From the NCBI GenBank assembly GCA_040954595.2, contig CM082588.2, forward strand, positions 12,526,157-12,590,156: a stretch of 64,000 nucleotides of DNA. Reading direction: 5' to 3'. Source of the DNA: Balanoglossus misakiensis. Its lineage: Eukaryota > Animalia > Hemichordata. A program made the position numbers and the translations under genes. Below are positions 4,251-64,000 of the stretch, piece by piece. The notes under the pieces are model-generated. The model worked only from the letters and a program-made list of their open reading frames with translations. It had not been told where the DNA came from and searched no databases. Each line of letters starts with the position of its first letter. Within the stretch, counting starts at the first letter, position 1.

Positions 4251-4257
4251 GTTTTAA

Positions 4258-4542: not shown

Positions 4543-4559
4543 TTAAAATATAACTGCAA

Positions 4560-9967: not shown

Positions 9968-9968
9968 A

Positions 9969-10007
<39 letters not shown>

Positions 10008-10008
10008 G
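9968..10008. repeat. (TG)n/(TGTA)n microsatellite
   Basis: Direct reading; shorter allele at about 30747-30778. Confidence 0.9.
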
Positions 10009-37504: not shown

Positions 37505-40500
37505 GAGTTCAAGGGTCAAGAGTTAGAGTTCAAGGGTCTAAGGTCAAGGGTTAGAGTTAAAGAGTTGGAGATCGAGGGTCAAGGGTCAAGGGTAAGAGCT
37601 CAAGGGTCAAAGTTTGGAGTTCATGGGTCAAAGGTTCAATGGTTAGAGTCCAAGGTTCAAGGGGTCAAGGGTTAGAGTTCAAGAGTTGGAGATCGAGGGT
37701 CAAGGGTAAGAGCTCAAGGGTCAAGGGTTAAAGTTCATGGGTCAAAGGTTCAATGGTTAGAGTCCAACGTTCAAGGGGTCAAGGATCAAGGAATAGAGTT
37801 CAATGGTCAAAGGTCAAGGGTTAGAGTTCAAGAGTTGGAGATCGAGGGTAAAGGGGGTCAAGGGTATGAGCACAAGGATCAAGGGTTAGAGTTCAATGGT
37901 CAAGGGGTCAAGGGTCAAGGATTTGAGTTCAACGGTCAAGGGTTAGAGTTCACGAGCCAATGATTTGAGTTCAAGGGTCAAAAGTCAAGGGTACGAGTTC
38001 AAGAGTTGGAGATCGAGGGTCAATGGGGTCAAGGGTCAAGGGTAGGAGCACAAGGATCAAGGGTTAGAGTTCAAGGGGTCAAGGGTCAAGGATTTGAGTT
38101 CAACGGTCAAGGGTTAGAGTTCACGAGTCAAGGATTTGAGTTCAAGGGTCAAAGGTCAAGGGTTAGAGTTCAAGAGTTGGAGATCAAGGGTCAAAGGTCA
38201 AGGATTATAGTTGATGGGTCAACAGTTGGCGTTCAAGGGTTAGAGTTTAATGGTCAAGGGTTCTAGGGTCAAGGGTTTAAGGGTCAAGCAGTAAGGGTCA
38301 GTTGTCAAGTTTAGAGTTTAAGGGTCAAGAGTTTTGTTTCAAGAGTCAAGGGTTAGATTTCAAGGGTCAAAGGTCAAGGGTTAGAGATCAAATGTCAAGG
38401 GTAAGAGTTCAAGGGTCAAATGTTAGAGTTCAAGGGTTAGAGTTCAAGGGTCAAAGGTCAAGGGTTATAGATCAAGTGACGATGGTAAGAGTTCAAGGGT
38501 CAAATGTTAGAGTTCAAGGGTCTAGGGTTAGAGTTCAAGGGTCAAAGGTCAAGGGTTAGAGTTAAAGAGTTGGCGATCGAGGGTCAAGGGTTGGAGTTCA
38601 TGGGTCAGAGGTTCAATGGTTAGAGTCCAAGGTTCAAGGGGTCAAGGATTAGAGTTCAGGGGTCAAAGGTCAATGGTTAGAGTTCAAGAGTTGGAGATCG
38701 AGGGTCCAGGGTTAGAGTTCAATGGTCAAGGGGTCATGGGTCTAGAATTTGAGTTCAAGGGTCAAAGGTCAAGGGTTAGAGTTCACGAGCCAAGGATTTG
38801 AGTTCAAGGGTTAGAGTTCACGAGTCAAGGGTTAGAGTCAAGGGTCTAAGGTCAAGGGTTAGAGTTCAAGAGTTGAAGATCAAGGGTCTAAGGTCAATGA
38901 TTATAGTTGATGAGTCAACAGTTGACGTTCAAGGATTAGAGTTTAAGGGTCATGGGTTTAAGGGACAAGCATTAAGGGTCAGTTGTCAAGTTTAGGGTTT
39001 AAGGGTGAAGAGTTTTGTTTCAAGGGTCAAAGGTTAGATTTCAAAGGTCAAGGGTTAGAGATCAAATGTCAAGGGTAAGAGGTCAAGGGTAAGAGTTCAA
39101 GGATCAAGGGTAAGAGCTCATGTGTCAAGGGTTGGAGTTCATGGGTCCAAGGTTCAAGTGGTCAAGGATCAAGGGTTAGAGTTCAATGGTAAAGGATTAG
39201 AGGTCAAGGGTTAGAGTTTAAGAGTTGGAGATCGAGGGTTAAGGGGTCAAGGGTCAAAGGTCAAGGATTATAGTTGATGGGTCAACAGTTTGCGTTCAAG
39301 GATTAGAGTTTAATGGTCAAGGGTTCTAGGGTCATGGGTTTAAGGGTCAAGCATTAAGGGTCAGTTGTCAAGTTTAGGATTTAAGGGTCAAGAGTTTTGT
39401 TTCAAGGGTCAAGGGTTAGATTTCAAGGGTCAAAGGTCAATGGTTAGAAATCCAATGTCAAGGGTAAGAGTTCAAGGGTCAAAGGTCAAGGGTTAGAGTT
39501 AAAGAGATGGAGATCGAGGGTCAGGGGTTGGAGTTCATGGGTCGGAGGTTCAATGGTTAGAGTCCATGGTTCAAGGGGTCAAGGATTAGAGTTCACGGGT
39601 CAAAGGTCAAGGGTTAGAGTTCAAGAGTTGGAGATCGAGGCTCAAGGGTTTGAGTTCAATGGTCAAGGGGTCATGGGTCAAGAATTTGAGTTCAAGGGTC
39701 AAGGGTTAGAGTTCACGAGCCAAGGATTTGAGTTCAAGGGTTAGAGTTCACGAGTCAAGGGTTAGAGTTCAAGGGTCTAAGGTCAATGGTTAGAGTTCAA
39801 GAGTTGGAGATCAAGGGTCAAAGGTCTATGATTATAGTTGATGGGTCAACAGTTGACGTTCAAGGGTTAGAGTTTAAGGGTCAAGGGTTTAAGGGACAAG
39901 CATTAAGGGTCAGTTGTCAAGTTTAGGGTTTAAGGGTCAAGAGTTTTGTTTCAAGGGTCAAAGGTTAGATTTCAAAGGTCAAGGGCTAGAGATCAAATGT
40001 CAAGGGTAAGAGGTCAAGGGTAAGAGGTCAAGGGTAAGAGCTCATGGGTCAAGGGTTGGAGTTCATGGGTCCAAGGTTCTAGTGGTCAAGGATCGAGGGT
40101 TAGAGTTCAATGGTAAAGGATTAGAGGTCAAGGGTTAGAGTTTAAGAGTTGTAGATCGAGGGTCAAGGGTCAAAGGTCAAGGATTATAGTTGATGGGTCA
40201 ACATTTGGCGTTCAAGGGTTAGAGTTTAATGGTCAAGGGTTCTAGGGTCATGGGTTTAAGGGTCAAGCATTAAGGGTCAGTTGTCAAGTTTAGGGTGTAA
40301 GGGTCAAGAGTTTTGTTTCAAGGGTCAAGGGTTAGATTTCAAGGGTCAAAGGTCAATGGTTAGAGATCCAATGTCAAGGGTAAGAGTTCAAGGGTCATAT
40401 ATTAGAGTTCAAGGGTTGGAGTTCATGGGTCAGAGGTTCAATGGTTAGAGTCCAAGGTTCCAGGGGTGAAGGATTAGAGTTCAAGGGTCAATGGTTAGAG

Positions 40501-43470
40501 TTCAAGAGTTGGAGATCGAGGGTCAAGGGGGTCAAGGGTTAGTCCAAGGTTCAAGGGGTCAAGGATCAAGGGTTATAGTTCAATGGTCAAGGGGTCATGG
40601 GTCAAGAATTTGACTTCAAGGGTCAAAGGTCAAGGGTTAGAGATCAAATGTCAAGGGTAAGAGTTCAAGGGTCAAATGTTAGAGTTCAAGGGTTAGAGTT
40701 CAAGGGTCAAAGGTCAAGGGTTATAGATCAAGCGACGATGGTAAGAGTTCAAGGGTCAAATGTTAGAGTTCAAGGGTCTAGGGTTACAGTTCAAGGGTCA
40801 AAGGTCAAGGGTTAGAGTTAAAGAGTTGGCGATCGAGGGTCAAGGGTTGGAGTTCATGAGCCAATGATTTGAGTTCAAGGGTCAAAAGTCAAGGGTACGA
40901 GTTCAAGAGTTGGAGATCGAGGGTCAAGGGGGTCAAGGGTCAAGGGTAGGAGCACAAGGATCAAGGGTTAGAGTTCAAGGGGTCAAGGGTCAAGGATTTG
41001 AGTTCAACGGTCAAGGGTTAGAGTTCACGAGTCAAGGATTTGAGTTAAAGGGTTAGAGTTCAAGAGTTGGAGATCAAGGGTCAAAGGTCAAGGATTATAG
41101 TTGATGGGTCAACAGTTGGCGTTCAAGGGTTAGAGTTTAATGGTCAAGGGTTTAAGGGTCAAGCATTAAGGGTCAGTTGTTAAGTTTAGGGTTTAAGGGT
41201 CAAGAGTTTAATTTCAAGGGTCAAGGGTTAGATTTCAAGGGTCAAAGGTCAAGGGTTAGAGATCAAATGTCAAGGGTAAGAGTTCAAGGGTCAAATGTTA
41301 GAATTCAAGGGTTAGAGTTTAAGGGTCAAAGGTCAAGGGTTAGAGATCAAGAGTCAAGGGTAAGAGTTCAAGGGTCAAATGTTAGAGTTCAAGGGTCAAG
41401 GGTTAGAGTTCAATGGTCAAAGGTCAAGGGTTAGAGTTAAAGAGTTGGAGATCAAGGGGTCAAGGGTCAAGGGTAAGAGCTCAAGGGTTGAAGTTCATGG
41501 GTCAGAGGTTCATTGATTAGAGTCCAAGGTTCAAGGGGTCAAGGTTTAGAGTTCAAGGGTCAAGGGTTAGAGTTCAAGAGTTGGAGATCGAGGGTCAAGG
41601 GTTATAGTTCAATAGTCAAGGGGTCATGGGTCAAGAATTTGAGTTCAAGGGTCAAGGGTTAGAGTTCACGAGCCAAGGATTTGAGTTCAAGGGTTAGAGT
41701 TCACGAGTCAAGGGTTAGAGTTCAAGGGTCTAAAGTCAATGGTAAGAGTTCAAGAGTTGGAGATCAAGGTCAAAGGTCAATGATTATAGTTGATGGGTCA
41801 ACAGTTGACGTTCAAGGGTTAGAGTTTAAGGGTCAAGGGTTTAAGGGACAAGCATAAAGGGTCAGTTGTCAAGTTTAGGGTTTAAGGGTCAAGAGTTTTG
41901 TTTCAAGGGTCAAAGGTTAGATTTCAAAGGTCAAGGGCTAGAGATCAAATGTCAAGGGTAAGAGGTCAAGGGTAAGAGCTCATGGGTCAAGGGTTGGAGT
42001 TCATGGGTCCAAGGTTCAAGTGGTCAAGGATCGAGGGTTAGAGTTCAATGGTAAAGGATTAGAGGTCAAGGGTTAGAGTTTAAGGGTTAGGGTTAGGGTT
42101 AGGGTCAAAGGTCAAGGGTCAAAGGTCAAGGATTATAGTTGATGGGTCAACAGTTGGCGTTCAAGGGTTAGAGTTTAATGGTCAAGGGTTCTAGGGTCAT
42201 GGGTTTAAGGGTCAAGCATTAAGGGTCAGTTGTCAAGTTTAGGGTGTAAGGGTCAAGAGTTTTGTTTCAAGGGTCAAGGGTTAGATTTCAAGGGTCAAAG
42301 GTCAATGGTTAGAGATCCAATGTCAAGGGTAAGAGTTCAAGGGTCATATATTAGAGTTCAAGGGTTGGAGTTCATGGGTCAGAGGTTCAATGGTTAGAGT
42401 CCAAGGTTCCAGGGGTCAAGGATTAGAGTTCAAGGGTCAAAGGTTAGAGTTCAAGAGTTGGAGATCGAGGGTCAAGGGGGTCAAGGGTTAGAGTCCTAGG
42501 TTCAAGGGGTCAAGGATCAAGGGTTATAGTTCAATGGTCAAGGGGTCATGGGTCAAGAATTTGACTTCAAGGGTCAAAGGTCAAGGGTTAGAGATCAAAT
42601 GTCAAGGGTAAGAGTTCAAGGGTCAAATGTTAGAGTTCAAGGGTTAGAGTTCAAGGGTCAAAGGTCAAGGGTTATAGATCAAGCGACGATGGTAAGAGTT
42701 CAAGGGTCAAATGTTAGAGTTCAAGGGTCTAGGGTTAGAGTTCAAGGGTCAAAGGTCAAGGGTTAGAGTTAAAGAGTTGGCGATCGAGGGTCAAGGGTTG
42801 GAGTTCATGAGCCAATGATTTGAGTTCAAGGGTCAAAAGTCAAGGGTACGAGTTCAAAAGTTGGAGATCGAGGGTCAAGGGGGTCAAGGGTCAAGGGTAG
42901 GAGCACAAGGATCAAGGGTTAGAGTTCAAGGGGTCAAGGGTCAAGGATTTGAGTTCAACGGTCAAGGGTTAGAGTTCACGAGTCAAGGATTTGAGTTAAA
43001 GGGTTAGAGTTCAAGAGTTGGAGATCAAGGGTCAAAGGTCAAGGATTATAGTTGATGGGTCAACAGTTGGCGTTCAAGGGTTAGAGTTTAATGGTCAAGG
43101 GTTTAAGCGTCAAGCATTAAGGGTCAGTTGTTAAGTTTAGGGTTTAAGGGTCAAGAGTTTAATTTCAAGGGTCAAGGGTTAGATTTCAAGGGTCAAAGGT
43201 CAAGGGTTAGAGATCAAATGTCAAGGGTAAGAGTTCAAGGGTCAAGGGTAAGAGTTCAAGGGTCAAGGGTAAGAGCTCATGGATCAAAGGTTCAATGGTT
43301 AGAGTCCAAGGTTCAAGTGGTCAAGGGGTCAAAGGTCAAGGGTTAGAGTTCAAAGGTCAAGGGTTAGAGTTTACGAGTTGGAGATCGAGGGTCAAGGGGT
43401 TCAAGGGTTATAGTTCAGACAGCTGGTCAAAGGTCAAAGGTAAAGGGTTAGAGATCGAGAGTCAAGGGTC
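37505..43470 (+). repeat. Satellite I: G-rich 7-nt-period array (GGGTCAA/AGGTCAA/GGGTTAG/AGTTCAA) with higher-order units including a 1,951-bp duplication
   Basis: Direct reading; near-identical spurious ORFs at 40597/42548 and 41177/43128 are both offset by 1951. Confidence 0.95.
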
Positions 43471-44024
43471 TAATATTAAAAACATGCGATATGGAAATAA
43501 CATCGCTTTTGTATTATATAACCCTTGCCTGGGATAAACACCTGATAGAGCATTATGTTTCCTCTAATTCATAATGTACATATACAATTCCAGATCAGCG
43601 CTGCTTGCAGCTTTAACTATTCTCCAAAATTCGGCCAGATTTCGAAAACCGCATAACCTATGGGGCTGAAACTTGGTAGGGTGATAGGGAACAATGATTG
43701 CAGTGGCTCGTAAATATTTAATTAGTCACATGATAGGGCTAGAGGTCTGGTTTTGGTTGGAGGCCCACTATGGGGTCAAAGTTTTATGCCCCAATTTTGG
43801 GTGACCTTTGACTTACTTTCCCATATCTCAGCATCCAAAGCAGTTAGATCCCTGGCGTTTGGGGGGATTGAGCACATAATGGAGTCTTACACGAAACTTT
43901 GTGACCTTAGGGAAGCCTTTCACTTCGATGTACAATTTCTTCTTTCTTCAGTTCATTAAAATTGTTGCCCATTGAGCCGATTCACCTATTGTGTACGTGT
44001 GTTCATTTAATAAGAGGAATAGCA

Positions 44025-44320
44025 CTCAAATCAAATCAAATTGAAATAAATGAAATTAAATTAAATTAAATCGAAATCATATTAATGTGATAAAATTAAA
44101 TTAGAGTAAAATAAATTATATTAAATTGAATCAAATAAAAATCAAATTAAATCAAAACAAATTAAATAAAATAAATTATATTAAATAATCAAATTAAATT
44201 AAATCCATCTGTCATTCATCCATCATTTATACATCCATCTGTTACCATCCATCTTTGAACCATCCAAATATTCATCTATCACCCATCCCATCTATCATCC
44301 ATATATCATTCATCCACACT
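44025..44320. repeat. (AAATT/AAATC)n followed by degenerate (CATC)n simple repeats
   Basis: Direct reading. Confidence 0.85.
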
Positions 44321-47300
44321 CATCCCGAAACCTAATCCTTACTCGGACCCCATGACCCAATCCCCTTCGTACCTCAAAACCTCACCCCAAAGTCAATCCC
44401 AGAATTGTACTCTCAAAAATACCTTATTAGTCAAACAACAATCACCGATCCAACTCCAAACTTACACTTGTCAGCTATCACCTACCATCCCATCACTACT
44501 CCCACCCAACTTCACCTCAGCCTATTCCCACTCGCTCCCCCATCATCACCCTGGCCTCCTTCACCAAAACCACACCAGACCACATAATGCCTCCATCTTT
44601 TACTCCACACCTTACACCCACCACAAATCCTAGCCATCACCCAACCTATCATAGCCCAAACAACCCAAACCCAATCAAAATTGACCCTAGCCCCACTTAT
44701 CATCATCCAAGCCATCAATGCTCAACGACACCCAAATAACACTAACTTAAAGATTGGCATAAATCCAAACTCATACCACTGCCACCCCCCATATACAAAA
44801 CCAAGACTCTATTACGAACCAATACCTACCTTTTATAGCAAATACACGACCAAAGATTTGATCCCATCTATCATCCATATCCGAAAACTAATCCTTACTG
44901 GGGCCCCATCCTAATCCCATAACCCAATCCACTTCGTACCTCAAACATCACCCCGAAGTCAATACAAGAATTATACTATCAAAAAAATTCATATTATTCA
45001 AACACCAATCACCGATCAAACTCTAAAGTTAAACTAACTCTCACGACCTTGTCAGCTACCACCCACCACCCCGTCACCACTCCCAACCGACTTTACCCAA
45101 ACCTATTCCCACTCGCACTCCCATCACAACCCTGGCCTCCTTCCCCCAAACCGCACCATCTCTTACACCACACCATACACCAACCACAAATTTAAATCCT
45201 GGCAGTCACCCAACCTATTATGCCCAAACAATCCAAATCAAATCAAAATTGACCCTAGCCCAAGCCTACCATCAATACTCGACGGCCAACCAAATAACAC
45301 TTAACTTAAAGATTGGCATCCAAATCCAAACTCATACCACTGCCACTCCAACAATGCAACATCAGGACTCTTTTTTACGAACCAAAACCTAACATTTGTA
45401 GAAAATAGGCGACCAAAGATTTAATCCCTCCAAATATTCATCTATCACCCATCCCATCTATCAGCCATATATTATTCATCCACACTCATCCCGAAACCTA
45501 ATACTTACTGGAACCCCACCTTTAACCCATGACCCAATCCCCTTTGTACGTCGAACCTCATCCGAAGTCAATCCCAGTATTGTACTCTCAAAAAATACCT
45601 TATTACTCAAACGCCAATCATCGATCAAACTCTAAACTTCTATTACTCTCACGACCTTGTCAGCTATCACCCGCCACCGCAATACCACTCCCACCCAACT
45701 TTACCCGAACATATTCCCACTCGTATTCACCACCCTGGCCTCCTTCACAAAAACCTACCCAGACCACATAAAGCCTCCATCTCTTACACCTCACCTTATA
45801 CCCACCACAAATCCTAGCTATCACCCAACCTATCATAGCCCAAACAATCCAAACCCAATCAAAATTGACCCTAGCCGCACTTATCAAGCCATCAATGCTC
45901 AACGGCAACCCAAATAACGCTTAACTTAAAGATTGGCATAAATCCAAACTCATACCACTGCCACCCCAAATATACAACACAAAGACTCTATCACGAACCA
46001 ATACCTACCATTTATAGCAAATACACGACCAAAGATTTGATCCCATCTATCATCCATATATCATCCTTCCACACTCATCCCGAAACCTAATCCTTACTGG
46101 AACCCCAACCTTAAACCCATGACCCAATCCCCTTCGTACCTTAAACCTCACCCCGAAATCAATTCCAGAATTGTAATTTAAAAAAATACCTTATTACTCA
46201 AACACAAATCACCGATCCAATTAAATTAAACTAACTCTCACGACCTTGTCAGCTATCACCAACCAATCCAAACCAACTTTACCTGATCGTATTCCCACTG
46301 CCCCCCTCCCCCTCCCCCCAATCACCACCCTGGCCTCCTTCACCAAAACCGCACCAGACCCCACAATGCCTCTTTGTCTTACACCACACCTTACACCCGC
46401 CACAAATTTAAATCCTGTCAGTCAACCAACCTATCAAAACCCAAACAATCCAAACAAATCAAAATTGACCTAGCCCACCTATCATCACCCAAAGCCTACC
46501 ATCAATACTCGACGGCCAAATAAATAACACTTAACTTAAAGATTGACATCCAATTCCAAACTCTACCACTGCCTGATGTTGTATTGTTGGAACAATACAA
46601 CATCAGGACTCTATTACGAACCAAAATCTTCCATGTGTAGAAAATAGCCGCCCAAAGATTTGATTCCTTCATATATTGAACTATCACCCATACCATATAA
46701 CATTCAAACACAATCATATAACATTCAAATACACTCATCCCGAAACCTAATCCTTAATGGAACCCCACTTTAACCCATGCCCCAAGTCAATCCCAGTATT
46801 TTACTCTCAAAAAATACCTTATTACTCAAACACCAATCATCTAAACTTATATTACTCTCATGACCTTGTCAGCTATCCCTAACCCTAACCCCAACCCACC
46901 ACCCCAATACCACTCACATCCAACTTTACCCGAACATACTCCTTCTCGCACCCCCATCACAACCCTGGCCTCCTTCACCAAAACCGCACCAGACCCCCAT
47001 AATGCCTCCATCTCTTACGTGACCACACCTTAATCCCACCACAAATCCTAGCCATCACCCAACCTATCATAGCTAAAACAAACTAAACTCTATCATTCTT
47101 GCCCCACTTATCATCAACCAAGCCATCAATGCTCAACGGTGGTAACCCAAATAACACTTAACTTAAAGATTTGCATAACCAAACTCATACCACTGCCACC
47201 CTAAATATACAACACCAAGACTCTATTACGAAACAATACCTACCATTTGTAGCAAATAGACCACCAAAGATTTGATCCCATCTATCATCAATATATCATC

Positions 47301-49590
47301 ATTCCACACTCATCCCGAAACCTAATCCTTACTGGGACCCCACATTAACCGACCCAATCCACTTCTTACCTCAAACCTAACCCCGAAGTCAATCCCGGAA
47401 TTGTACTCTTACAAAATACGTTATTACTCAAACACCAATCACCGATCCAATTCCAAAGTTACACTAAGGCTCACGACCTTGTCAGCTATCACCACAGCCA
47501 CCCAACTTTACCCCAACCTATTCCCACGCACCCCTATCACCACCCCGACCTACATCCCCAAAACCGCAGTAGCCCCACCACAAATTTAAATCCTGGCATT
47601 CACCCAAACTATCACAACTCAAACGTCCCAAACCAAATCAAAATTGACCCTAGCCCTAATATTACCCAAGCCTACCCAATACCCGACGACCAACCAAATA
47701 ACACAACTTAAAGATTGGCATCCAAATCCAAACTCTACCACTGCCACTCCAACATGACAACATCAGGACTCTATTACGTACCAAAACCTTCCATGTGTAG
47801 GAAATAGCGACCAAAGATTTGATCCCTCCATATATTCATCTATCACCCATCCCATCTATCATCCATTCATCCACACTCATCTCGAAACCTAATCCTTACT
47901 GCGACCCCACCTTAAACCGATGACCCAATCCACTTCCTACCTCAAACATCACCCCGAAGTCAATCCAAGAATTATACTCCTAAAACATTTCCTATTACTC
48001 AAACACCAATCGCCGATCAAATTATTAAGTTATACTCACTCTCACGACCTTGTCAGCTATAACCCAGCACCTCGTCACCACTCTCACCCAACTTAAATCA
48101 AACCTATTCCCACTCGCAGCCCCATCACAACCCTGGCCTCCTTCACCGAAACCGCACCAGACCTCATATTGCCTCGATCTCTTACACCACACCTTACATC
48201 CACCACAAATTTAAATCCTGGCAGTCACCAAACCAATCATAACCCAAACAATCCAAACAAATCAAAATTGACCCTGGCCCTATCCCACCTAACATCACCC
48301 AAAGCCTACCAATACTCGACGGCCAACATTGGCATCCAAATCCAAACTCATACCACTGCCACTCCCACTATACAAAATCAGGACTCTATTACGAACCAAA
48401 ACCTACTATTTGTAGAAAATAGGCGACCAAAGATTTAATCCTCCAAATATTCATCTATCACCCATCCCATCTATCACCCATATATCAGTCATCAACACTC
48501 ATCCTAAAACATAATCCTTACTGGAACCCCACCTTAAATCCATGTCCCAATCCCCTTTGTACCTCAAACGTCTCCCCGAAGTCAATCCCAGAATTGTACT
48601 CTCAAAAATTGCCTTATTACTCAAACACCAATCATCGACCCAACTCTAAACTTAAACTTACTCACATGACCTTGTCTGTCATCACTGCATTACCACTCAC
48701 ACCCAACTTTACCCAAACATACTCCTACTATCACCCCAATCACCAGCCTGGCCTCCTTCACCAAAAACACAACAGACCCCATAATGCCTCTAACCCTAAT
48801 CTCTTACGTGACCACGACTTATACCCTCCACAAATCCTAGCCATCACCAAAACTATCCAAACACAATCAATATTGACCCTTACTTCACTTATCATCAACC
48901 AAGCCATCAATGCTCAACGTCAACGCAAATAACACTTAACTTAAACCAAACTCAAACCACTGCCACCCCAAATATAGAACACCAAGACTCTATTACGAAC
49001 CAATACCTACCATTTGTAGCAAATAAACGCCCAATAATTTGATCCCGTCTATCATCCATATATCATCATTCCACACTTATCCCGAAACCTAATCCTTATT
49101 GGGACCCAACTTAAACCGACGCAATCCACATCTTACCTCAAACCTCACCCCGAAGTCAATCCCAGAATTCTACTCTTAAAAAATACGTTATTACTCAAAC
49201 AACAATCACCGATCCAACTCCAAACTTACACTAAGGCTCGCGACCTTGTAAGCTATCACCACTACCACACAACTTTACCCCAACCTATTCCCACTCACCC
49301 CTATCACCACCCCGACCTCCATCCCCAAAACCGCACTAGCCCCACCAAAAATTTAAATCCTGTCAGTCACCCAACCTATCATAACAAAAACATCCCAAAC
49401 CAAATCAAAATTGACCCTAGCCCTAACATTGCCCAAGCCTAACATCAATACTCGAAGGCCACGCAAATAACTCTTAACGTAAAGGTTGGCATAAATACAA
49501 ACTCTAATACTAATACTCAAACAACATTTATTACGCTATTCCGAACCAAAACCTGCAATTTTTATATACGACCAAAGATCCTGACCATAG
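44260..49590 (+). repeat. Satellite II: C/A-rich ~560-660-bp units, about 9 diverged copies in alternating subtypes
   Basis: Anchor cccgaaacctaatccttact near 44324, 44881, 45490, 46079, 46739, 47314, 47882, 48502, 49081; subtypes marked by aagccatcaatgctcaacg versus aagcctaccatcaatactcgacgg. Confidence 0.93.
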
Positions 49591-49599
49591 AAGAATTCA

Positions 49600-51310
49600 C
49601 TTCTGTCAATAATACAAACTCCTACAAACTCTCTCTGGCTAATTCATAAAATGTATTTATTTAGGCTTCGAAATAATGGAAATCAAAATGAATCATCTTT
49701 TTGAAAATATTATTAAACACTCATTATTTGGGTACAAATATGATGATTGTTCTGTATTGCATGTATAAATTAAAAATGACTCATTTATCATTTCAAATTC
49801 AAAAACAACCATTTTTAGGCTTAAAACATTAACTTTGTTTTCGAAAATGTTATAAAACACCCCTTGTGGATATCAACATTTAACGACACCCACCCCGCTT
49901 GTGTGATATGAGAGTAAAAACTCGCCCAAGAGAGACTTTGTCACACATTGTAAACACTTCTAAATCATTCGAAATCTTTTCTTTAAATATTATAAAAAAA
50001 ACCACCATTACTTTGTGCACAAAAACTTTTCATACAATACCAAAACGATATTTGGTCCTAAACGCAAGTTTTTTATTATTAGATAATGATTTCAAACTCG
50101 AAATCACCCCGTACTTTTAGCTTAGAAATAATTTTCCTCTGAAAATATTATAAACTCCAAAAACTGTTTAAAAAGCAATTTCTATACAATAACAACCCTG
50201 TTTAAGGCTTTGAAAAACTGTTTAATCATTCTAAAACGTTTCTTTGAACATAATACAAAACCATCCTTTATTCGGGCCCAAAAACTGTTCAAAATGATAT
50301 TTTTTCATATAACAAGTTTTGAATAAAAATTAATAGATAGTGATTTCAAACTCAAACACATCCTTATTTAGGCTTATAAACATTCTAAATTTCTTTTAAA
50401 AATATTCTCTCGATTTAAGGCTTTTTTCTAAAACATTCGTTGAAAGTATTACTAAAACACAACATTTTGGCACAAAAAATTTTCAATACGACATTAAAAA
50501 CGATGTATGTTCCATGAAAACATAAAAACCAGGCATTGAAAATTGTATATAAAACGCAAAATTTTGGTACAAAAAATGTTAAATTCGATATGAAATCGAT
50601 TTTATAATAATATTGCGTATTTAGAAAATAATTTACTTAATCAGCAATTTTTTGAAAATACAAATAGATTTAAGGCTTAAAAACACTTTTTAATAATTCA
50701 ATATCTTTCTTTGAAAATATTATTAAGAAACACATTTCTTGGGCTCAAAAACACCAAGACTCTATTACGATATTAAAACGACGTTTGTTCCATATCACAT
50801 TTTTATAATAATCTCAGCAACATGGCCTGTTTGTTCCATATTGCATTTTTATTTGAAAAACGATTCAATAAGTATTTTAAATTGAAATGCACTTTAATTT
50901 TGGCATAAAAACAGATTAACAGATTATAATACACCCACCTTTGAAAATTGTATATAAAACGCAATATTTTGGTACGAAAATATTTCATACGGTATTAAAT
51001 CGATATTATTATTATTATTATTTATTCACATACTGTAGGCCACCGGCCCATAGGTATACATCATATAATAAAGTTACATCGCTGAAGACGCTGTTTACAT
51101 GTAGTTATTTACACAACATTTGCAGGTGTTGAACCTGGTATTGCATTATGACGTTTCCTTGTGGAAAACAATATAAACTTTGATAGATTCTGTATAATGG
51201 AAGCATTTTCAGATTGCAAAAGTTTGATATCGATATGAAATCGATATTATAAAAATATTGCGAATTTTGAATAAAATTTATTTAATAAGCGATTTTAATA
51301 TTTTGGGCAC
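49600..51310 (-). repeat. Satellite III, left arm (inverted relative to 51320-57840)
   Basis: 50340-50420 gatttcaaactcaaacacatccttatttagg...ctctcgatttaaggc is the reverse complement of 53430-53512. Confidence 0.88.
51010..51237 (-). mobile_element. Short retroelement 3' end with (AAT)n tail inserted in Satellite III
   Basis: (att)n tail on + strand; reverse strand reads ...SIIQNLSKFILFSTRKRH...*; flanked by direct repeat aaatcgatattat (50997-51009, 51238-51250). Confidence 0.55.
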
Positions 51311-51319
51311 GAAAATTCC

Positions 51320-54300
51320 ATCCCAAAATATGGGTGTTTTAATATTAATTTTAAACATAGATATAGAATATAGAAAGTATTTAAAGCCAGAAATCAATAT
51401 TAAAATCGCTTCAAAGCCTTTAATAGGGAACATTTATATTGGAATTGCTTAATAATCATTTTCGTTCAAAATACGCAATGTGAATATAACATCAATTTTA
51501 TATCGTATTGAACATTTTTCGTGAAAAAAATGCGTTTTTTTATACGATTTTTTTTTATATTCCCATAGTGTTATTTCAACATAAATAAGTGTGGAATGCT
51601 CATTGAATCAAATTTATTATCAAAATGTGATATGGAAGAAACATCATTTTAATATCGTATTCAACAGATTTCGAGCCCAAACAATGGATGTTTTGATAAT
51701 ATTATCAAAGAAAGAGAAAGAATGATTAAAAAGTGTTTTTAAGCCTAAAATCCAAAAAAATTGCTTAATAATCATTTTCGTTCAAAATACGCAATATTAT
51801 TTTAAAAAGATTTCTTATCGTATTAAACATTTTTTCGTCCCAAAATATCGGTGTGTTTGAGTTTGAAATCTCTATTTATCAATTTTTATTAAAAATGTGC
51901 GATATGAAGTTCTTGAGCCCGGATAAAGGATGTTTATGTGTTATGTTCAAAGAAAGGTTTTAGAATGATTTAACAGTTGTCCAAAGGCTTAAATAGGGAT
52001 GTAAATATATAGGAATTGCTTATTAAATCATTTCCATTAAAAATACGCTATGTGAATATGACATTGATTTTAAAAGGTATTAAACATTTTTTGTGAAAAA
52101 CTAAAGCGTGTTATAGAAAAAAAATTCAAAAAGGTTTTTAATGGTCCCACATTGTTTTTTAGCCTGAATAAGTGGGTTTGAATTTAAAATGCTTATTGAA
52201 TCGTTTTTATTTAATACATGTGATATGAAACTGACAACGTTTTTATAGTCGTATTGAGCAGTTTTCTTGCCAAATAATGTTTTTTTGTAATACATTCAAA
52301 AGACACTTTAGAATGATTAGAAACCGGTTCAACGCGTCGCAAAATATTTATATTTGAATTGCTTGTTAAATCATTTTCATATTAAATTTTTTTAGCTGAT
52401 TTGATTTTTATTCCATACATATATGGAATCAAAACATCTATTTTATATCAGTTTTTGGAGTTTATAATATTTTCAGATGAAAATTATTCGTAAGCCTAAA
52501 AATATTGGGTGTTTTTGAGTTTGAAATCAGTATATAATAATTTTTATCAAGACGTGCGTTATGGACCAAATATCGTTTTAGTATTGTATTTGAAGTTTTG
52601 TCCACAAATTAATGGTGGTTTTGAATCATATTCAAAGAAATGATTTAGGATGATTTTAAAGTGTTCTGAAGCCTTTAATCTTGTTGCATTCATGTTGAAA
52701 TCGCTTGTTAAAACATTTTCATTTGAAATAAACAATGTGAATAAAAAACGATTAAATACCGAATTAATCACTTAAAGTGAAAGATAATGCGTTTTATATC
52801 AAATTTAAAAGACGGGTTTAATAATGATGTCAGGGTGTTTTTTATGACTAAATAAGTTTGTATTTAACTTTAAAATGCTTTACGGATCATTTTTATTTAA
52901 AACCTGAAATATGGAACAAGCATTGTTTTAGTATAGTATTAAATAGTTTTCATTCCTAAATAATTATTTTTTTATTATATACACAAAGAAAGGTTTAAGA
53001 ATTATATATTACTGTTTTAGAGCTATATGCGTGTATTGATTTATCGATTGTTTATTTAATCATATTTTTTCAAAATATACAATGTGAATAAAATATCGTT
53101 TTAAGCCTAAAATCGATTTGAATTCCAAAAAATCGCTTACTAAATAAATTATTTTCAAAATACGCAATGTTATTATCACATCGATTTTATATCATATTTA
53201 ACATTTTTTCGTCCCAAAATATCGCTTTTAATAAGTGAGGTTTTATAATGATCCAACAGTGTTTTCAAGCCGTAAATAGTTTTTTGAAACGTTAATTGTC
53301 TTTTTTAATATATAAAAGCAATATGGAACATACATCGTTTTTTATGTCGTATTGATTAGTTTTAGTGCCAAAATATTGTGTTTTAGTAATACTTTCAATG
53401 AAAATTTTAGAATGATTAAAAAGTGTTTAAAAGCCTTAAATCGAGAGAAAAATTTTAAAAGGAATTTAAAATGTTTATAATCCTAAATAAGGGTGTGTTT
53501 GAGTTTGAAATCTCTATCTATTAATTTTTATTAAAAATGTGCGAGATGAAGTTCTTGGTCCCGAATATAGGATGGTTTTGTGTTATGTTCAAAGAAAGGT
53601 TTAAGAATGATTTATCAGTTTTCCAAAGGCTTAAATATGGGTGTAAATATATAGAAAATGCTTGTTAAATCATTTCCGTTAAAAATACGCTATATGAATA
53701 TGACATTGATTTTAAAAGGTATTAAACATTTTTTGTGAAATAGATGTTGTTATGTGTTATAGAAAAAAATTTCGAAAGGTTTTTAAAGATCCCACATTGT
53801 TTTTTAGCCTAAATAAGTGGATTTGAATTTAAAATGCTTATTGAATCGTTTTTATTTAATACATGCGATATGAAACTAACAACGTTTTTGTGTCGTATTG
53901 AGCAGTTTTCTTGCCAAATAATGTTTTTTGTAATACATTCAAAAGAGACTTTAGAATGATTAGAAACCGGTTCAACGCCTCGCAAAACATTTATATTGGA
54001 ATTGCTTGTTAAATCATTTTTTTTAGCTTATTTGATATTTATTCAATACATATATAAATTAACACATCTATTTTATATCAGTTTTTGGAGTTTGAAATCA
54101 GTATCTAATAATTTTTATTTAAATGTGCGTTAGGGACCAAACATCGTTTTAGTATTGTATTTAGAGTTTTTGTCCACAAATTAATGGTGGTTTTGTATCA
54201 TATTCAAAGAAATGATTTAGGATGATTTTAAAGTGTTCTGAAGCCTTTAATCTTGTTGCATTCATGTTGAAATCGCTTGTTAAAACATTTTCATTTGAAA

Positions 54301-57300
54301 TTAAAAATGTGAATAAAAAACGATTTAATACCGAATTAATCACTTAAAGTGAAAAATAATGCGTTTTATATCAAATTTCAAAGACGGGTTTAATAATGAT
54401 GTCAGGGTGTTTTTTATGACTAAATAAGTTTGTATTTAACTTTAAAATACATTACGGATCATTTTTCATTTAAAACCTGAATTATGGAACAAGCATTGTT
54501 TTAGTATAGCATTAAAGAGTTTTCATTCCCAAATAATTAGTTTTTTTTTATAATATACACAAAGAAAGATTTAAGAATTATATATTACTGTTTTAGAGCT
54601 ATATGCGTGTATTGATGTATCGATTGTTTATTTAATCATATTTTTTTCAAAATACACAATGTGAATACAATATCTTTTTAAGCATAAAATCGATTTGAAT
54701 TCCAAAAAAATCGCTTACTAAATAAATTATTTTCAAAATACGCAATATTATTATCACATCGATTTTATATCATATTAACAATTTTAAAGTGAGGTTTTTA
54801 AATGATCCAAAAGTGTTTTCATGCCTTAAATAGTTTTTTGAAATGTTTATTGTCTTTTTTAATATAAAAAAGCAATATGGAAAATACATCGTTTTTTATG
54901 TCGTATTGAAAAGTTTTTCTGCCAAAATATTGTGTTTTAGTAATACTTTCAATGAAAGTTTTAGAATGATTAAAAAGTATTTAAAAGCCTTAAATAGAGA
55001 GAAAAATTTTAAAAGGAATTTAGAATGTTTATAATCCTAAATAAGGGTGTGTTTGAGTTTGAAACCTCTATCTATTAATTTTTATTAAAAATGTGCGAGA
55101 TGAAGTTCTTGGTCCTGAATATAGGATGGTTTTGTGTTATGTTCAAAGAAAGGTTTTAGAATGATTTAACCTTTTTTTCAAAGGCTTAAATATGGGTGTA
55201 AATATATAGAAATTGCTTTTTAAATCATTTCCGTTAAAAATACGCTATATGAATATGACATTGATTTTAAAAGGTATTAAACATTTTTTGTGAAAAACTA
55301 AAGCGTGTTATAGAAAAAAAATTCAAAAAGGTTTTTAATGGTCCCACATTGTTTTTTAGCCTAAATAAGTGGATTTGAATTTAAAATGCTTATTGAATCG
55401 TTTTTATTTAATACATGCGATATGAAACTAACAACGTTTTTGTGTCGTATTGAGCAGTTTTCTTGCCAAATAATGTTTTTTGTAATACATTCAAAAGAGA
55501 CTTTAGAATGATTAGAAACCGGTTCAACGCCTCGCAAAACATTTATATTGGAATTGCTTGTTAAATCATTTTTTTTAGCTTATTTGATATTTATTCAATA
55601 CATATATAAATTAACACATCTATTTTATATCAGTTTTTGGAGTTTGAAATCAGTATCTAATAATTTTTATTTAAATGTGCGTTATGGACCAAACATCGTT
55701 TTAGTATTGTATTTAAAGTTTTTGTCCACAAATTAATGGTGGTTTTGTATCATATTCAAAGAAATGATTTAGGATGATTTTAAAGTGTTCTGAAGCCTTT
55801 AATCTTGTTGCATTCATGTTGAAATCGCTTGTTAAAACATTTTCATTTGAAATTAAAAATGTGAATAAAAAACGATTTAATACCGAATTAATCACTTAAA
55901 GTGAAAAATAATGCGTTTTATATCAAATTTCAAAGACGGGTTTAATAATGATGTCAGGGTGTTTTTTATGAGTAAATAAGTTTGTATTTAACTTTAAAAT
56001 ACATTACGGATCATTTTTCATTTAAAACCTGAATTATGGAACAAGCATTGTTTTAGTATAGTATTAAAGAGTTTTCATTCCCAAATAATTAGTTTTTTTT
56101 TATAATATACACAAAGAAAGATTTAAGAATTATATATTACTGTTTTAGAGCTATATGCGTGTATTGATGTATCGATTGTTTATTTAATCATATTTTTTTC
56201 AAAATACACAATGTGAATACAATATCTTTTTAAGCATAAAATCGATTTGAATTCCAAAAAAATCGCTTACTAAATAAATTATTTTCAAAATACGCAATAT
56301 TATTATCACATCGATTTTATATCATATTAACAATTTTAAAGTGAGGTTTTAAAATGATCCAAAAGTGTTTTCATGCCTTAAATAGTTTTTTGAAATGTTT
56401 ATTGTCTTTTTTAATATAAAAAAGCAATATGGAAAATACATCGTTTTTTATGTCGTATTGAAAAGTTTTTCTGCCAAAATATTGTGTTTTAGTAATACTT
56501 TCAATGAAAGTTTTAGAATGATTAAAAAGTATTTAAAAGCCTTAAATAGAGAGAAAAATTTTAAAAGGAATTTAGAATGTTTATAATCCTAAATAAGGGT
56601 GTGTTTGAGTTTGAAACCTCTATCTATTAATTTTTATTAAAAATGTGCGAGATGAAGTTCTTGGTCCTGAATATAGGATGGTTTTGTGTTATGTTCAAAG
56701 AAAGGTTTTAGAATGATTTAACCTTTTTTTCAAAGGCTTAAATATGGGTGTAAATATATAGAAATTGCTTTTTAAATCATTTCCGTTAAAAATACGCTAT
56801 ATGAATATGACATTGATTTTAAAAGGTATTAAGCATTTTTTGTGAAAAACTTAAGCGTGTTATAGAAAAAAAATTCAAAAGGTTTTTAAAAGATCCCACA
56901 TTGTTTTTTAGCCTAAATGAGTGGTTTTGAATTTAAAATCTTATTGAATCGTTTTTATTTAATACATGCGATATGAAACTAACAACGTTTTTGTGTCGTA
57001 GTGAGCAGTTTTCTTGCCAAATAATGTTTTTTTGTAATACATTCAAAAGAGACTTTAGAATAATTAGAAACCGGTTTAATGCCTCGGAAAACATTTATAT
57101 TGGAATTGCTTGTAAAATCATTTTTTTAGCTTATTTGATATTTATTCAATACATATATAAATCAAAACATCTATTTTATATCAGTTTTTGGAGTTTGAAA
57201 TCAGTATATAATAATTTTTATTAAAACGTGCGTTATGGACCAAACATCGTTTTAGTATTGTCCACAAATTAATGGTAGTTTTGTATCATATTCAAAGAAA

Positions 57301-57840
57301 TGATTTAGAATGATTTTTAAGTGTTCTCAAGCCTTTAATCATGTTGCATTCATGTTGAAATCGCTTGTTTAAACATTTTCATTTGAAATAAACAATGTGA
57401 TTAAAAAACGATTTTATACCGAATCAAACCCTTCAAGTGAAAAATAATGCGTTTTATATCAAATTTTAAAAACGGGTTTAATAAAGATCTCAGGATGTTT
57501 TTTATGACTAAATAAGTTTGTATTTAACTTTAAAATGCTTTACGGATCATTTTCATTTAAAACCTGAAATATAGAACAAGCATTGTTATAGTATATTATT
57601 AAAGTTTTTTATTATTAGTTTTTTTTTATAATATATACAAAGAAAGGTTAAAGAATTATAAGTTACTGTTTTGGAGCTTTAAATATGCGTGTATTGATGT
57701 ATCGGTGGTTTATTTAATCACATTTTTTCAAAATAAACAATGTGAATAAAACATCTTTTTATACCTTATTAAATAGTTTTTTTCATCAAAATGAGGGGTG
57801 TTTTATAGTATTTTCGACAAAAAAATTGATTTCAATGTTT
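51320..57840 (+). repeat. Satellite III: AT-rich ~1.55-kb tandem repeat, about 4 units, with degenerate internal subrepeats
   Basis: Identical spurious ORFs at 54161/55713 and 54843/56395 (offset 1552); related ORF at 52559; motif ttcaaagaaa..tttagaatgatt recurs within each unit. Confidence 0.95.
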
Positions 57841-57959
57841 TAAGCCTATTCATGTTGATTTCCTTTGTTTTGAAGCATAAATAAATACATTTTATTAATT
57901 AGCTGGCAGAGGGAATTTGTAGGAGTTTGTATTATTGACAGAAGTGAGTTCTTCCATGG

Positions 57960-58800
57960 TCATTATCTTTGGTCGCGTTTAAAAATTGTAGGTTTTGGTT
58001 CGTAATAGCGTTTTGGTGTTGTTTAGTTCGGTATGCGTTTCGATTTAGGCCAATCTTTACGTTAAGATTTTTTGGGTGGTCTTCGAGTATTGGGTAATGA
58101 TAGGGCTAGGGTCAATTTTGACTTGGTTTGGGATGTTTGAGTTATGATAGGTTGGGTGACTGCCAGGATTTAAATTTGTGGTGGGTCTTGTGCGGTTTTG
58201 GGGATGGAGATCGGGGTGGTGATAGGGAGGCATGGGAATATGTTGGGGTAAAGTTGGCTGGTAGTGGTGATAGCTGACAAGGTAGTGAGCCTTAGTTGAA
58301 ATTGAGAGTTGGATCTGTGATTGGTGTTTGAGTTATAACGTATTTTTTAAGAGTATAATTCTGGGATTTACTTCGGATTGAGGTTTGAGGTAAGAAGTGG
58401 ATTGGTTCGGTTAAGGTGGGGTCCCAGTAAGGATTAGGTTTCGGGATGAGTTTGGAAGGATGATATATTGGATCAAATCTTTGGTCACCTATTTTCTACA
58501 CATGGAAGGTTTTGGTTTGTAATAGAGTCCTGATGTTGTATTGTTAGTGTGGCAGAGTTTGGATTTGGATGCCAATCTTTAAGTTAAGTGTTATTTCGTT
58601 GGCCGTCGGGTATTGATGTTTGGCTTGGGTGATGATAGGTGAGCTAGGGCTATTTTGATTTGGTTTGGATTGTTTGGGTTATAATAGGTTGGGTGACTGC
58701 CAGAATTTAAATTTGTGGGTGGTGTAAGGTGTGGTGTAAGAGATGGAGGCATTATGGGTTCTTGTTCGGTTTTGGTGAAGGATGCCAGGGTGGTGATGGG
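57960..58800 (-). repeat. Satellite II, inverted (about 1.5 units)
   Basis: cagtaaggattaggtttcgggatgag (about 58425) and gatagctgacaaggt are reverse complements of Sat-II anchors. Confidence 0.92.
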
Positions 58801-58808
58801 GGGGGGGG

Positions 58809-60660
58809 CTTCAACTCTAATCCTTGACCCATGACCCTTGATCCTTGATCTCCAACTCTTGAACTCTAATCCTTAACACTTGACCTTTGACCCATCAACC
58901 CTTGACCCCTTAACTCAAACTTTTTAACCTTTGAACTCCTACCCTTGACCTTTGACTGTTGAACTACAACCTTTGACCCTTGAACTCTATCACTTGACCA
59001 TTAAACTCTAATACTTGGCTACTGACTATTGGTCCCTTGACCTTTGAACCTTGACCTCTGACCCTTGAACCTTAAACCTTTGACCTTTGAACTCTAACCC
59101 TTGACACTTGAACCCTTGACCATTAAACTTTAACGCTTGAAAACAGACCGTTGACCCTTGATCTTCAACTGTTGAACCCTAACCCTTGACCTTTGAACCT
59201 TCAACTCTAACCCTTGACCCTTGACCTCTTGACCTTAACTCCAACTTCTGACTTTTGAACTCTAACTCTTGACCTTTGACCCTTGACCTTTGACCCTTGA
59301 AATGTAACCTTTGACCCTTGATCCTTGATCTCCATCTCTTGAACTCTGACCCTTGACTCTTGACCTCTTGACCTTAACTCCAACTTTTGACTTTTGAACT
59401 CTGACCCTTGACCTTTGACCCTTGACCTTCGACCCTTGAAATCTAACCTTTGACCCTTGACACTTTGACCGCTTGATCCTAGATCTCCAACCCTTGAACT
59501 CTAACCCTTGACCTTTGAACTTTCAAAACTACCCCCTGACCCTTGATCTCTTAAACTTAACTCCAACTTTTTACTTTTGAACACTAACCTTGACCTTTGA
59601 CCCTTGAACTATAACCTTTGACCCTTGAACTATATCACTTAAACTCTAATACTTGGCCACTGACTCTTGGTCCCTTGACCCTTGACCCTTGCAACTTTGA
59701 CCCTTGAAATCTAATCTTTGACCCCTTGAACCTTGATCTCCAACTCTTGAACTCTAATCCTTGACCTTTGAACCTTCAACTCTAACCCTTGACCCTTGAC
59801 CTCTTGACCTTAACTCCAACTTTTGACTTTTGAACTCTAACCCTTGACCTTTGACCCTTGACCCTTGACCTTTGACCCATGAAATCTATCCTTTGACCCT
59901 CCAACTCTTGAACTCTAACCCATGACCTTTGAACCTTCAACTCTAACCCTTGACTCTTGACCTCTTGACCTTAATTCCAACTTTTGACTTTTGAACTCGA
60001 ACCCTTGACCTTTGAGCCTTGACCCCTTGAACCTTGATCTCCAACTCTTGAACTCTAACCCTTGACCTTTGAACATTCAACTCTAACCCAAGACCCTTGA
60101 CCTCTTGACCTTAACTCCAACTTTTGACTTTTGAACTCTAACCCTTGACCTTTGACCCTTTAAATGTAACCTTTGACCTTTGACCCCTTGATCCTTGATC
60201 TCCAACTCTTGAACTCTAACCCTTGACCTTTGACCCTTGAACTATATCACTTAAACTCTAATACTTGGCCACTGACTCTTGGTCTCTTGACCCTTGACCC
60301 TTGCAACTTTGACCCTTGAAATCTAACATTTGACCCTTGACCCTTTGACGCCATGATCCTTGATCTCCAACTCTTGAACTCTAATCCTTGACCTTTGAAC
60401 CTTCAACTCTAACCCTTGACCCTTGACCTAAACTCCAACTTTTGGCTTTTGACCTTTGACCCTTGAAATCTAACCTTTGACCCTTGACCCTTTGACCCCT
60501 TGATCCTTGATCTCCAATTCTTGAACTCTAACCCTTGACTCTTGACCTCTTTACCTTAACTCCAACTTTTGACTTTTGAACTCTAACCCTTGACCTTTGA
60601 CCCTTGAAATCTAACCTTGACCCTTGACATTTTGACCGCTTGATCCTAGATCTCCAACTC
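58809..60660 (-). repeat. Satellite I, inverted (C-rich on + strand)
   Basis: ttgacccttgaactctaacccttgacctttgaccc is the reverse complement of the Sat-I core. Confidence 0.95.
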
Positions 60661-60914
60661 TTAGGGGTTAGGGGTTAGGGGTTAGGGGTTAGGGGTTAGG
60701 GTTAGGGGTTAGGGGTTAGGGGTTAGGGTTAGGGTTAGGGTTAGGGTTAGGGTTAGGGTTAGGGTTAGGGTTGGGGTTAGGGTTAGGGTTGGGGTTGGGG
60801 TTGGGGTTGGGGTTGGGGTTGGGGTTGGGGTTGGGGTTAGGGTTGGGGTTGGGGTTAGGGTTGGGGTTGGGGTTAGGGTTGGGGTTGGGGTTAGGGTTGG
60901 GGTTAGGGTTGGGG
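60661..60914 (+). repeat. Proximal telomere variant-repeat zone (TTAGGGG then TTGGGG mixed with TTAGGG)
   Basis: Eight TTAGGGG and one TTAGGG in 60661-60722; TTGGGG-rich in 60771-60914. Confidence 0.9.
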
Positions 60915-63726: not shown

Positions 63727-63764
<38 letters not shown>

Positions 63765-64000
63765 GGTTAGGGTTAGGGTTATGGTTAGGGTTAGGGTTAG
63801 GGTTAGGGTTAGGGTTAGGGTTAGGGTTAGGGTTAGGTTAGGGTTAGGGTTAGGGTTAGGGTTAGGGTTAGGGTTAGGTTAGGGTTAGGGTTAGGGTTAG
63901 GGTTAGGGTTAGGGTTAGGGTTAGGGTTAGGGTTAGGGGTAGGGTTAGGGGTAGGTTAGGGTTAGGGGTTAGGGTTAGGGTTAGGGTTAGGGTTAGGGTT
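60915..64000 (+). repeat. Telomere (TTAGGG)n
   Basis: About 3.1 kb of near-perfect TTAGGG running to the window end; G-strand 5'->3' toward the end. Confidence 0.99.

What the first reader, a model, noticed from the sequence alone, without database searches (positions are those of the whole stretch)
37505..60660. The whole subtelomere is a ~23-kb nested mirror of three satellites: I>II>III | III<II<I, capped by the telomere
Seen: the order Sat-I, Sat-II, Sat-III is repeated in reverse order and reverse complement. The unique II/III junction (49570-49690, ...gaagaattcacttctgtcaataatacaaactcctacaaa...) reappears inverted at 57845-57975, so the arms are homologous rather than coincidentally similar. 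Copy numbers are asymmetric (Sat-I 6.0 vs 1.85 kb; Sat-II about 9 vs 1.5 units; Sat-III about 1 vs 4 units) and the arms are visibly diverged. Inference: either an old fold-back/breakage-fusion-bridge product later healed by telomerase, or a giant non-coding foldback-like module with satellite-built inverted arms that spreads among chromosome ends.
Basis: partly seen in the sequence, partly recalled or inferred. Interest (0 to 1): 0.82.

Follow-up and report, generated by a model that had tools for sequence, protein, structure and literature searches.

The report
Old fold-back scar at chromosome end
The last 23 kb before this animal chromosome's telomere is a real mirror image of three repeat blocks, most likely the old scar of a broken end that folded back on itself and was later re-capped, a known kind of repair rather than a new mobile element.

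Summary
The mirror is real. Sat-I, II and III recur in reverse order and strand, and the II/III junction aligns inverted (91%). The strands flip at 51298-51331 on a 10-nt inverted repeat with a 14-nt loop. Contigs of two public runs, probably the source sample, bridge the flip in a second version that lacks a 241-nt insertion, so misassembly is unlikely.

The arms are colinear almost to the flip and differ by 12.5% in four mirrored blocks. Contig depths suggest that the I-II-III cassette is a multi-copy family while the centre and right-arm junction are rare; no single-copy baseline was measured. The outer layer is not a true mirror: the I/II joins differ, Sat-I arms share 2.4% of 31-mers, and the ends do not match.

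Best reading (0.55): an old hairpin or U-type fold-back in one cassette copy, then a break in Sat-I, telomere capping and separate array turnover. Rivals: joining of two diverged ends (0.22), a spreading dyad module (0.10), a foldback transposon (0.07). Close precedents: human fold-back inverted duplications and Tribolium macro-dyad satellites. This scan noted similar satellite fold-backs in other genomes.

The parts
37505..43470 (+). Sat-I, left arm: G-rich array of 7-nt variants with longer internal duplications
42084..42104 (+). 3.5 pure telomere repeats replacing a motif that two homologous Sat-I positions (39194, 40118) keep; likely a break-repair scar
43471..44269 (.). Left-only spacer: 39-nt Sat-III fragment in right-arm orientation (43474-43512), a dispersed-repeat fragment with relatives in the flank, then AT-rich and CATC-type microsatellites
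44270..49579 (+). Sat-II, left arm: 9 units of 537-623 nt, 76-90% alike, two subtypes
46877..46892 (-). Telomere-repeat insertion found only in Sat-II unit 5, oriented opposite to the tract in Sat-I
49580..49693 (+). II/III junction, left version; near-identical to a high-depth read contig
49696..51297 (-). Sat-III, left arm: degenerate, inverted relative to the right array, interrupted by two insertions
50993..51233 (.). 241-nt insertion with a simple-repeat tail and a 17-nt flanking duplication (1 mismatch); absent from a read contig that joins 50992 to 51234
51298..51331 (.). Flip point: perfect 10-nt inverted repeat (51298-51307 / 51322-51331) with a 14-nt loop and no foreign DNA
   Evidence: bridged by contigs
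51332..51400 (+). 69 nt present on the right side only, flanked by a 5-nt direct repeat; likely an asymmetric deletion on the left side of the centre
   Evidence: read from the sequence; stem
51323..57761 (+). Sat-III, right arm: degenerate centre-side part, then a 1.55-kb unit in three full and two partial copies (92-99% alike over shared parts)
52441..52511 (+). Marker segment found once in each arm (left 50105-50173, 87%) and in no other Sat-III unit of the window
57848..57964 (-). II/III junction, right version; low-depth exact read contigs
57965..58808 (-). Sat-II, right arm: 1.5 units; the junction-side unit groups with left unit 9
58809..60662 (-). Sat-I, right arm, joined directly to Sat-II and cut inside a recurring motif
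60661..64000 (+). Telomere: variant repeats at the base (8 seven-mers, 17 TTGGGG) then 373 uninterrupted TTAGGG; 2-nt overlap with the cut Sat-I motif

Best explanation
The block is a head-to-head pair of one satellite cassette (I-II-III) capped by a telomere, and it most likely arose long ago when a copy of that cassette broke inside Sat-III, folded back on itself and was replicated into a mirror. Shown: the mirror order, colinearity up to the flip, the tiny loop, 12.5% arm divergence, two versions of the centre, and the cut inside a Sat-I motif at the telomere. Inferred: (1) the cassette is a family with several to about twenty copies; (2) a hairpin-capped break or sister-chromatid (U-type) fusion made a near-perfect palindrome; (3) a 69-nt one-sided deletion and point changes stabilised it; (4) either the dicentric broke in the second Sat-I and telomerase capped it, or an acentric folded fragment that kept its telomere was captured on a broken arm; these two routes give the same end product and I cannot separate them; (5) the arrays then grew, shrank and exchanged with other family members, which explains unequal copy numbers and different I/II joins. 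No function is needed.
For: Both arms end on the same Sat-III motif: 10-nt inverted repeat, 14-nt loop; random head-to-head joins of two Sat-III copies give this in 547 of 20,000 trials. The left centre-side piece aligns best to the right centre-side piece (score 246, 83.7%; next 202, 78.7%). Marker 52441-52511 occurs once per arm. The last right Sat-II unit is sister to left unit 9 (support 88/90) and shares 6 private columns with it, at most 3 with any other unit. Four mirrored blocks differ evenly (61/508, 10/112, 32/218, 30/226; chi-square p = 0.48). Centre and right-junction contigs have similar low depth (X1 120, 128, 138; X2 76-118), the left-type junction 2,184 in X1. A third, diverged contig (depth 78 and 90) appears from its joints to run through the centre-side sequence without flipping and to keep the 69-nt segment (tables 5 and 8; inferred from joints, its letters were not seen). 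Human fold-back products end in new telomeres with 1-4 nt overlap (PMC3907307, passages); small one-sided central deletions stabilise palindromes in mice (PMC8701086, passages).
Against: The I/II joins differ; a contig of depth 1,596 in X1 carries the right-type direct join with 38 other letters, so that join is shared with other copies, not with the left arm. The second Sat-II units of the two arms are of different subtypes. Only 2.4% of right Sat-I 31-mers occur in left Sat-I. Over the whole left Sat-III, windows of the right array score higher (740) than the mirrored position (584), and block 50167-50515 is closer to distal units (88-89%) than to its mirror (84%). The third copy is about as close to the right arm (26 differences and 19 gap letters over 183 nt) as the arms are to each other, so the arms are not shown to be each other's closest relatives. 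A young, long palindrome with a 14-nt loop would be very unstable (PMC10164571, introduction). Human spacers are 766-70,466 nt, far longer than here.
Confidence: 0.55

Rival explanations
1. Two already diverged copies of the cassette from different chromosome ends were joined head to head (end fusion or inverted capture), so the arm divergence is older than the join.
For: Different I/II joins and second Sat-II subtypes; left junction and right I/II join each match separate high-depth versions; a third copy of the centre-side region exists; diverged arms would be stable at once.
Against: Both arms stop at the same motif, expected in 2.7% of random joins; summed depth over the centre-side bins is low even at 80% likeness (X1 140-471, X2 142-273, leaving out the bin 51079-51219 inside the insertion), so this region is not a common cassette end.
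Confidence: 0.22
2. The mirror is one copy of a spreading macro-dyad module, as in Tribolium centromeres, copied between chromosome ends with its centre.
For: Same anatomy as T. freemani inversion points: no foreign DNA and loops of 9-27 nt (PMC12581902, passages); two versions of the centre exist; no single-copy baseline was measured, so depth 80-120 could be a few loci.
Against: Centre depth is about 18-fold below the left-type junction in X1 (120 versus 2,184); Tribolium centres are 95-99.9% alike on several chromosomes, which would give high depth.
Confidence: 0.1
3. A giant non-autonomous foldback (Mutator-type) transposon with three-domain inverted arms, cut at its right end and capped by a telomere.
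For: Foldback elements such as Tetris have multi-domain arms with variable tandem-repeat numbers and no coding capacity (PMC4079207, passages); no ATG-started ORF of 120 aa or more lies in 37500-60660.
Against: Outer ends do not match (rank 62 of 176 windows); arms are 13.8 and 9.3 kb against up to 1.7 kb in Tetris; no middle domain; left and right junction versions differ about 16-fold in depth in X1, where copies of one element would carry both.
Confidence: 0.07
4. Assembly or sequencing artefact (fold-back read or misjoin).
For: No listed contig spans either laid stretch whole; the telomere join and the left flank join were not tested; the window's exact letters at the flip and at 58808 are not among the listed bridges.
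Against: Arms differ by 12.5%, which a read artefact cannot create; contigs of two runs bridge the flip (51234-51472, 51247-51472); exact contigs bridge the right III/junction boundary (57796-57932).
Confidence: 0.03

Closest known systems
Fold-back inverted duplications with terminal deletion (Hermetz et al. 2014, PMC3907307; passages read)
   Same: Head-to-head duplication at a chromosome end, short inverted sequence at the centre, telomere joined to the end of the inverted arm with a few bases of overlap.
   Different: Human cases are new, megabase-sized and have a 766-70,466-nt single-copy spacer; here the loop is 14 nt (closer to the U-type exchange that the paper contrasts), arms are satellites 12.5% apart and the centre exists in two versions.
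Macro-dyad satellite arrays TfSat01/TfSat03 of Tribolium freemani (PMC12581902; passages read)
   Same: Satellite arrays that flip strand without foreign DNA, small loops, unequal arm lengths, one satellite's dyad lying between arrays of another.
   Different: Those centres are conserved and present in more than a thousand centromeric copies; this centre is low-depth and next to a telomere, with three layers.
Foldback transposons, e.g. Tetris of Drosophila virilis (PMC4079207; passages read)
   Same: Non-coding, multi-domain inverted arms with variable tandem-repeat counts.
   Different: No matching ends, no middle domain, target duplication not testable, arms five to eight times longer.
Ordered multi-satellite subtelomeres of Chlamydomonas reinhardtii (Sultan, Subtile, Suber; PMC8287924; passages read)
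   Same: A fixed order of repeat blocks shared by many ends; telomere healing inside an array is proposed to trim it.
   Different: The word 'inverted' does not occur in that paper's main text; whether this cassette lies at other ends here is untested.
10-kb palindrome next to the C. elegans XL telomere (mentioned in bioRxiv 10.1101/2022.09.04.506531; passage read)
   Same: A natural multi-kilobase mirror directly beside a telomere in an animal.
   Different: I saw only one sentence on it; its make-up and origin were not compared.

Membership tests
Fold-back inverted duplication with terminal healing | Head-to-head colinear copies | tested here: met
   II-junction-III layers colinear to the flip; Sat-I layer by family only
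Fold-back inverted duplication with terminal healing | Short inverted sequence at the centre | tested here: met
   10-nt inverted repeat, 14-nt loop
Fold-back inverted duplication with terminal healing | Single-copy spacer of about 0.8-70 kb (human fold-back class) | tested here: not met
   Loop 14 nt, at most 93 nt between longer matches; fits the spacer-less U-type or hairpin variant
Fold-back inverted duplication with terminal healing | Telomere joined to the cut inverted arm | tested here: met
   Motif that continues normally at 5 other places in the right Sat-I is cut at 60662 with a 2-nt overlap; join not checked in reads
Fold-back inverted duplication with terminal healing | Arms are each other's closest relatives | tested here: inconclusive
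   Even divergence, but a third copy is equally close and other copies could not be read
Foldback / Mutator-type transposon | Matching terminal sequences | tested here: not met
   Terminal window ranks 62 of 176; the right end may be cut
Foldback / Mutator-type transposon | 8-10-nt target site duplication | not testable with these tools
   Right flank is the telomere; no genome held
Foldback / Mutator-type transposon | Dispersed copies carrying both arms | tested here: inconclusive
   Depths of the two junction versions differ about 16-fold in X1; depth is no copy number
Foldback / Mutator-type transposon | Transposase gene or middle domain | tested here: not met
   No ORF of 120 aa or more from ATG; no middle domain
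Tribolium-type macro-dyad module | Flip without foreign DNA, small loop | tested here: met
Tribolium-type macro-dyad module | Conserved centre in many copies on several chromosomes | tested here: inconclusive
   Low centre depth argues against it, two versions exist, no baseline
Non-autonomous Helentron with internal satellites | Terminal hairpin and subterminal inverted repeats | tested here: inconclusive
   No significant hairpin at 4 of 4 joins folded (z -1.15 to 0.35); true cassette ends unknown

The most novel reading that the evidence does not exclude
The I-II-III cassette is a natural telomere-rescue template in a wild animal germ line: Sat-I carries 71 perfect one-base-spaced direct repeats of the A/GGGTCA half-site in 7.8 kb, which would recruit COUP-TF/TR4-type receptors as variant repeats do at human ALT telomeres, drawing broken ends to the cassette; the mirror and the two embedded telomere tracts of opposite orientation would record repeated break, capture, fold-back and healing cycles.
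Probability: 0.08. Interest if true: 0.75.

Novelty: new member of a known kind. Interest (0 to 1): 0.3.

Why it matters
As a repair scar it is a well-preserved natural record of how a long palindrome with almost no spacer can persist in an animal germ line, with a one-sided central deletion, 12.5% arm divergence and an insertion that differs between versions. It shows that fold-back and telomere healing, mostly studied in patients, tumours and mutants, likely also rebuild chromosome ends in wild invertebrates. It does not define a new system. It would matter much more if the cassette proved to be a receptor-bound rescue template for broken ends.

Tried and rejected
No genome is held, so other chromosome ends could not be mapped. 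Rfam: 0 matches in 37000-61000. No ATG-started ORF of 120 aa or more in the block. No RNA holder listed; no evidence either way on expression. Organism B runs X3/X4 (share 0.07): 21 pieces each, listed ones at depth 2-5, some identical to the window, 92-96% running on unlike; read as carry-over or chance, not as presence in a second species. X5 laid only 5 pieces, on Sat-I. G-quadruplex patterns are not enriched in Sat-I (8 versus shuffled mean 9.4). Half-site direct repeats exceed shuffles (45 and 26 versus maximum 3 and 1), but any 7-nt tandem array of this unit gives that, so it is not evidence of binding. Whole-arm global alignment did not favour the mirrored position. Hairpins at four joins were not significant; the centre folds with z -2.84, 3 of 200 shuffles as good, which only restates the inverted repeat. 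Pfam found no family for 2 of 2 short cysteine-rich exons, so 'EGF-like' rests on the cysteine pattern and recall. Whether Sat-I descends from telomere repeats was not settled: one of its 7-mers equals the variant at the telomere base, but the same half-sites cluster in dispersed repeats of the flank. Look-ups of earlier findings by Sat-II/junction and Sat-III sequence gave nothing. No paper on acorn-worm subtelomeric satellites appeared in the listings. PMC7691514 held none of five search terms; only the start of its abstract was seen. PMC8381367 (passages) gave general context only.
Full report
Observation. A self comparison of the window shows three repeat blocks in the order I, II, III and then III, II, I on the other strand, followed by telomere repeats. 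The II/III junction aligns inverted at 102 of 112 columns, far above 1,000 shuffles. The block has no ATG-started ORF of 120 aa or more and no Rfam match. The flank holds short cysteine-rich exons, several broken, in a 19.4-kb-period duplication. Earlier AI notes call this genome a likely acorn worm; I did not test that.

The centre. Strand assignment switches between 51246 and 51321. There a perfect 10-nt inverted repeat closes a 14-nt loop. A second perfect match of 16 nt (51287-51302 / 51396-51411) lies just outside; the right side has 69 extra bases flanked by a 5-nt direct repeat (read; stem). Both arms therefore end on the same Sat-III motif. Random head-to-head joins of two Sat-III copies gave such a centre in 547 of 20,000 trials. 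The left centre-side piece matches the right centre-side piece best, and a 71-nt marker occurs once in each arm and in no other unit. Against this, the left Sat-III as a whole fits distal units better than its mirrored position.

Age and turnover. Four mirrored blocks differ at 133 of 1,064 columns (12.5%), evenly (p = 0.48). The right junction-side Sat-II unit groups with left unit 9, but the next units are of different subtypes. Sat-I has turned over separately: 58% of left 31-mers repeat within the left arm, but 2.4% of right 31-mers occur there. The I/II joins differ: direct on the right, a 0.8-kb spacer on the left. So the true mirror is II-junction-III; the Sat-I layer is related by family.

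Reads. Five runs were listed; three are one sample that may be the source of the assembly, so they test assembly but are not independent populations. I laid 4.2 kb and 1.8 kb of the 23.2 kb; all are contigs, tables are cut to the best rows, and the tool warns that depth is no copy number. Contigs of X1 and X2 bridge the flip, in a version with a 10-nt indel and a changed base at 51316; the X1 contig also lacks the 241-nt insertion. So the join exists in reads, in a version other than the window's. Exact contigs bridge the right III/junction boundary. Depths: centre 120 (X1), 82-118 (X2); right junction 128-138 (X1), 76-109 (X2); left-type junction 2,184 (X1); a right-type direct I/II join with 38 other letters 1,596 (X1 only); further junction versions at 224 and 325 (X2). 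X1 is likely a Hi-C library (ligation-type loose ends) and biased; the left junction has restriction sites that the right lacks, but so does the low-depth centre. In X2 summed depth at the left junction is only 628-1,028 against 142-273 at the centre. I infer a cassette family of several to about twenty copies and a mirror at one or a few loci.

The ends. At 60662 a motif that continues normally at five other places of the right Sat-I is cut and runs into telomere repeats with a 2-nt overlap. The telomere base has 8 seven-mer and 17 TTGGGG variants, which by general knowledge suggests a long-standing telomere. The left end abuts a GA-rich tract about 110 nt after a cysteine-rich exon without a normal donor site, as if the block had been joined to a broken gene (inference). 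The two outer ends do not match.

Mechanism. The best account is an old hairpin or U-type fold-back inside Sat-III of one cassette copy, stabilised by a one-sided central deletion and divergence, then capped inside Sat-I, with later exchange between each arm and other family members (0.55). Fold-back with telomere healing is described in PMC3907307 (passages), though with much longer spacers; stabilising central deletions in PMC8701086 (passages); the dependence of instability on spacer and divergence in PMC10164571 (abstract and introduction). Joining of two diverged ends (0.22) explains the unlike I/II joins and the stability better, but not the shared end point. A foldback transposon like Tetris (PMC4079207, passages) fails on ends and middle domain (0.07). 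Misassembly is unlikely (0.03).

Novelty. Nested satellite dyads, fold-back ends and a palindrome beside an animal telomere are all in print, so this is a new member of a known kind. Nine literature searches listed no account of this satellite set. The boldest open reading is a receptor-bound rescue template: Sat-I has 45 + 26 one-base-spaced direct repeats of A/GGGTCA, the half-site that COUP-TFII and TR4 bind at ALT telomeres (PMC6785246, passages; the preference for one-base spacing is recalled). Nothing here tests binding, and a 7-nt array yields such sites by construction. No supplements were read.

Noticed in passing
window 1-17776 and 19427-37037: Tandem segmental duplication (about 93-97%) of a region with EGF-like exons, several with stops or frameshifts; the second copy carries an extra retroelement at about 27200-29000 and ends about 470 nt before Sat-I.
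   Followed up: partly
window 26436-28979 (- strand): Broken LINE with reverse-transcriptase match (RVT_1, E 1.4e-06, just under the curated cut-off) and endonuclease-like pieces.
   Followed up: partly
window 1956-2976 and 21403-22399 (- strand): Broken gag/protease-like retroelement fragment with a zinc-knuckle-like motif in both duplicate copies (label recalled).
   Followed up: no
window 42084-42104 and 46877-46892: Two short pure telomere tracts inside Sat-I and Sat-II, in opposite orientations, each absent from homologous units; likely telomerase-touched repair scars.
   Followed up: partly
window 50993-51233: Insertion that differs between versions of the centre: present in the window, absent from an X1 contig; its body has depth 566 in X1.
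   Followed up: partly
window 49865-49950: Fragment of a very abundant dispersed repeat inside left Sat-III (bin depth 116,885 in X1, loose ends in 20-23 contigs).
   Followed up: no
window 60661-60914: Telomere base made of seven-mer and TTGGGG variant repeats; the seven-mer equals one of the Sat-I units.
   Followed up: partly
window 43474-43512: 39-nt Sat-III fragment directly after left Sat-I, in the opposite orientation to left Sat-III: a second small inversion join.
   Followed up: no
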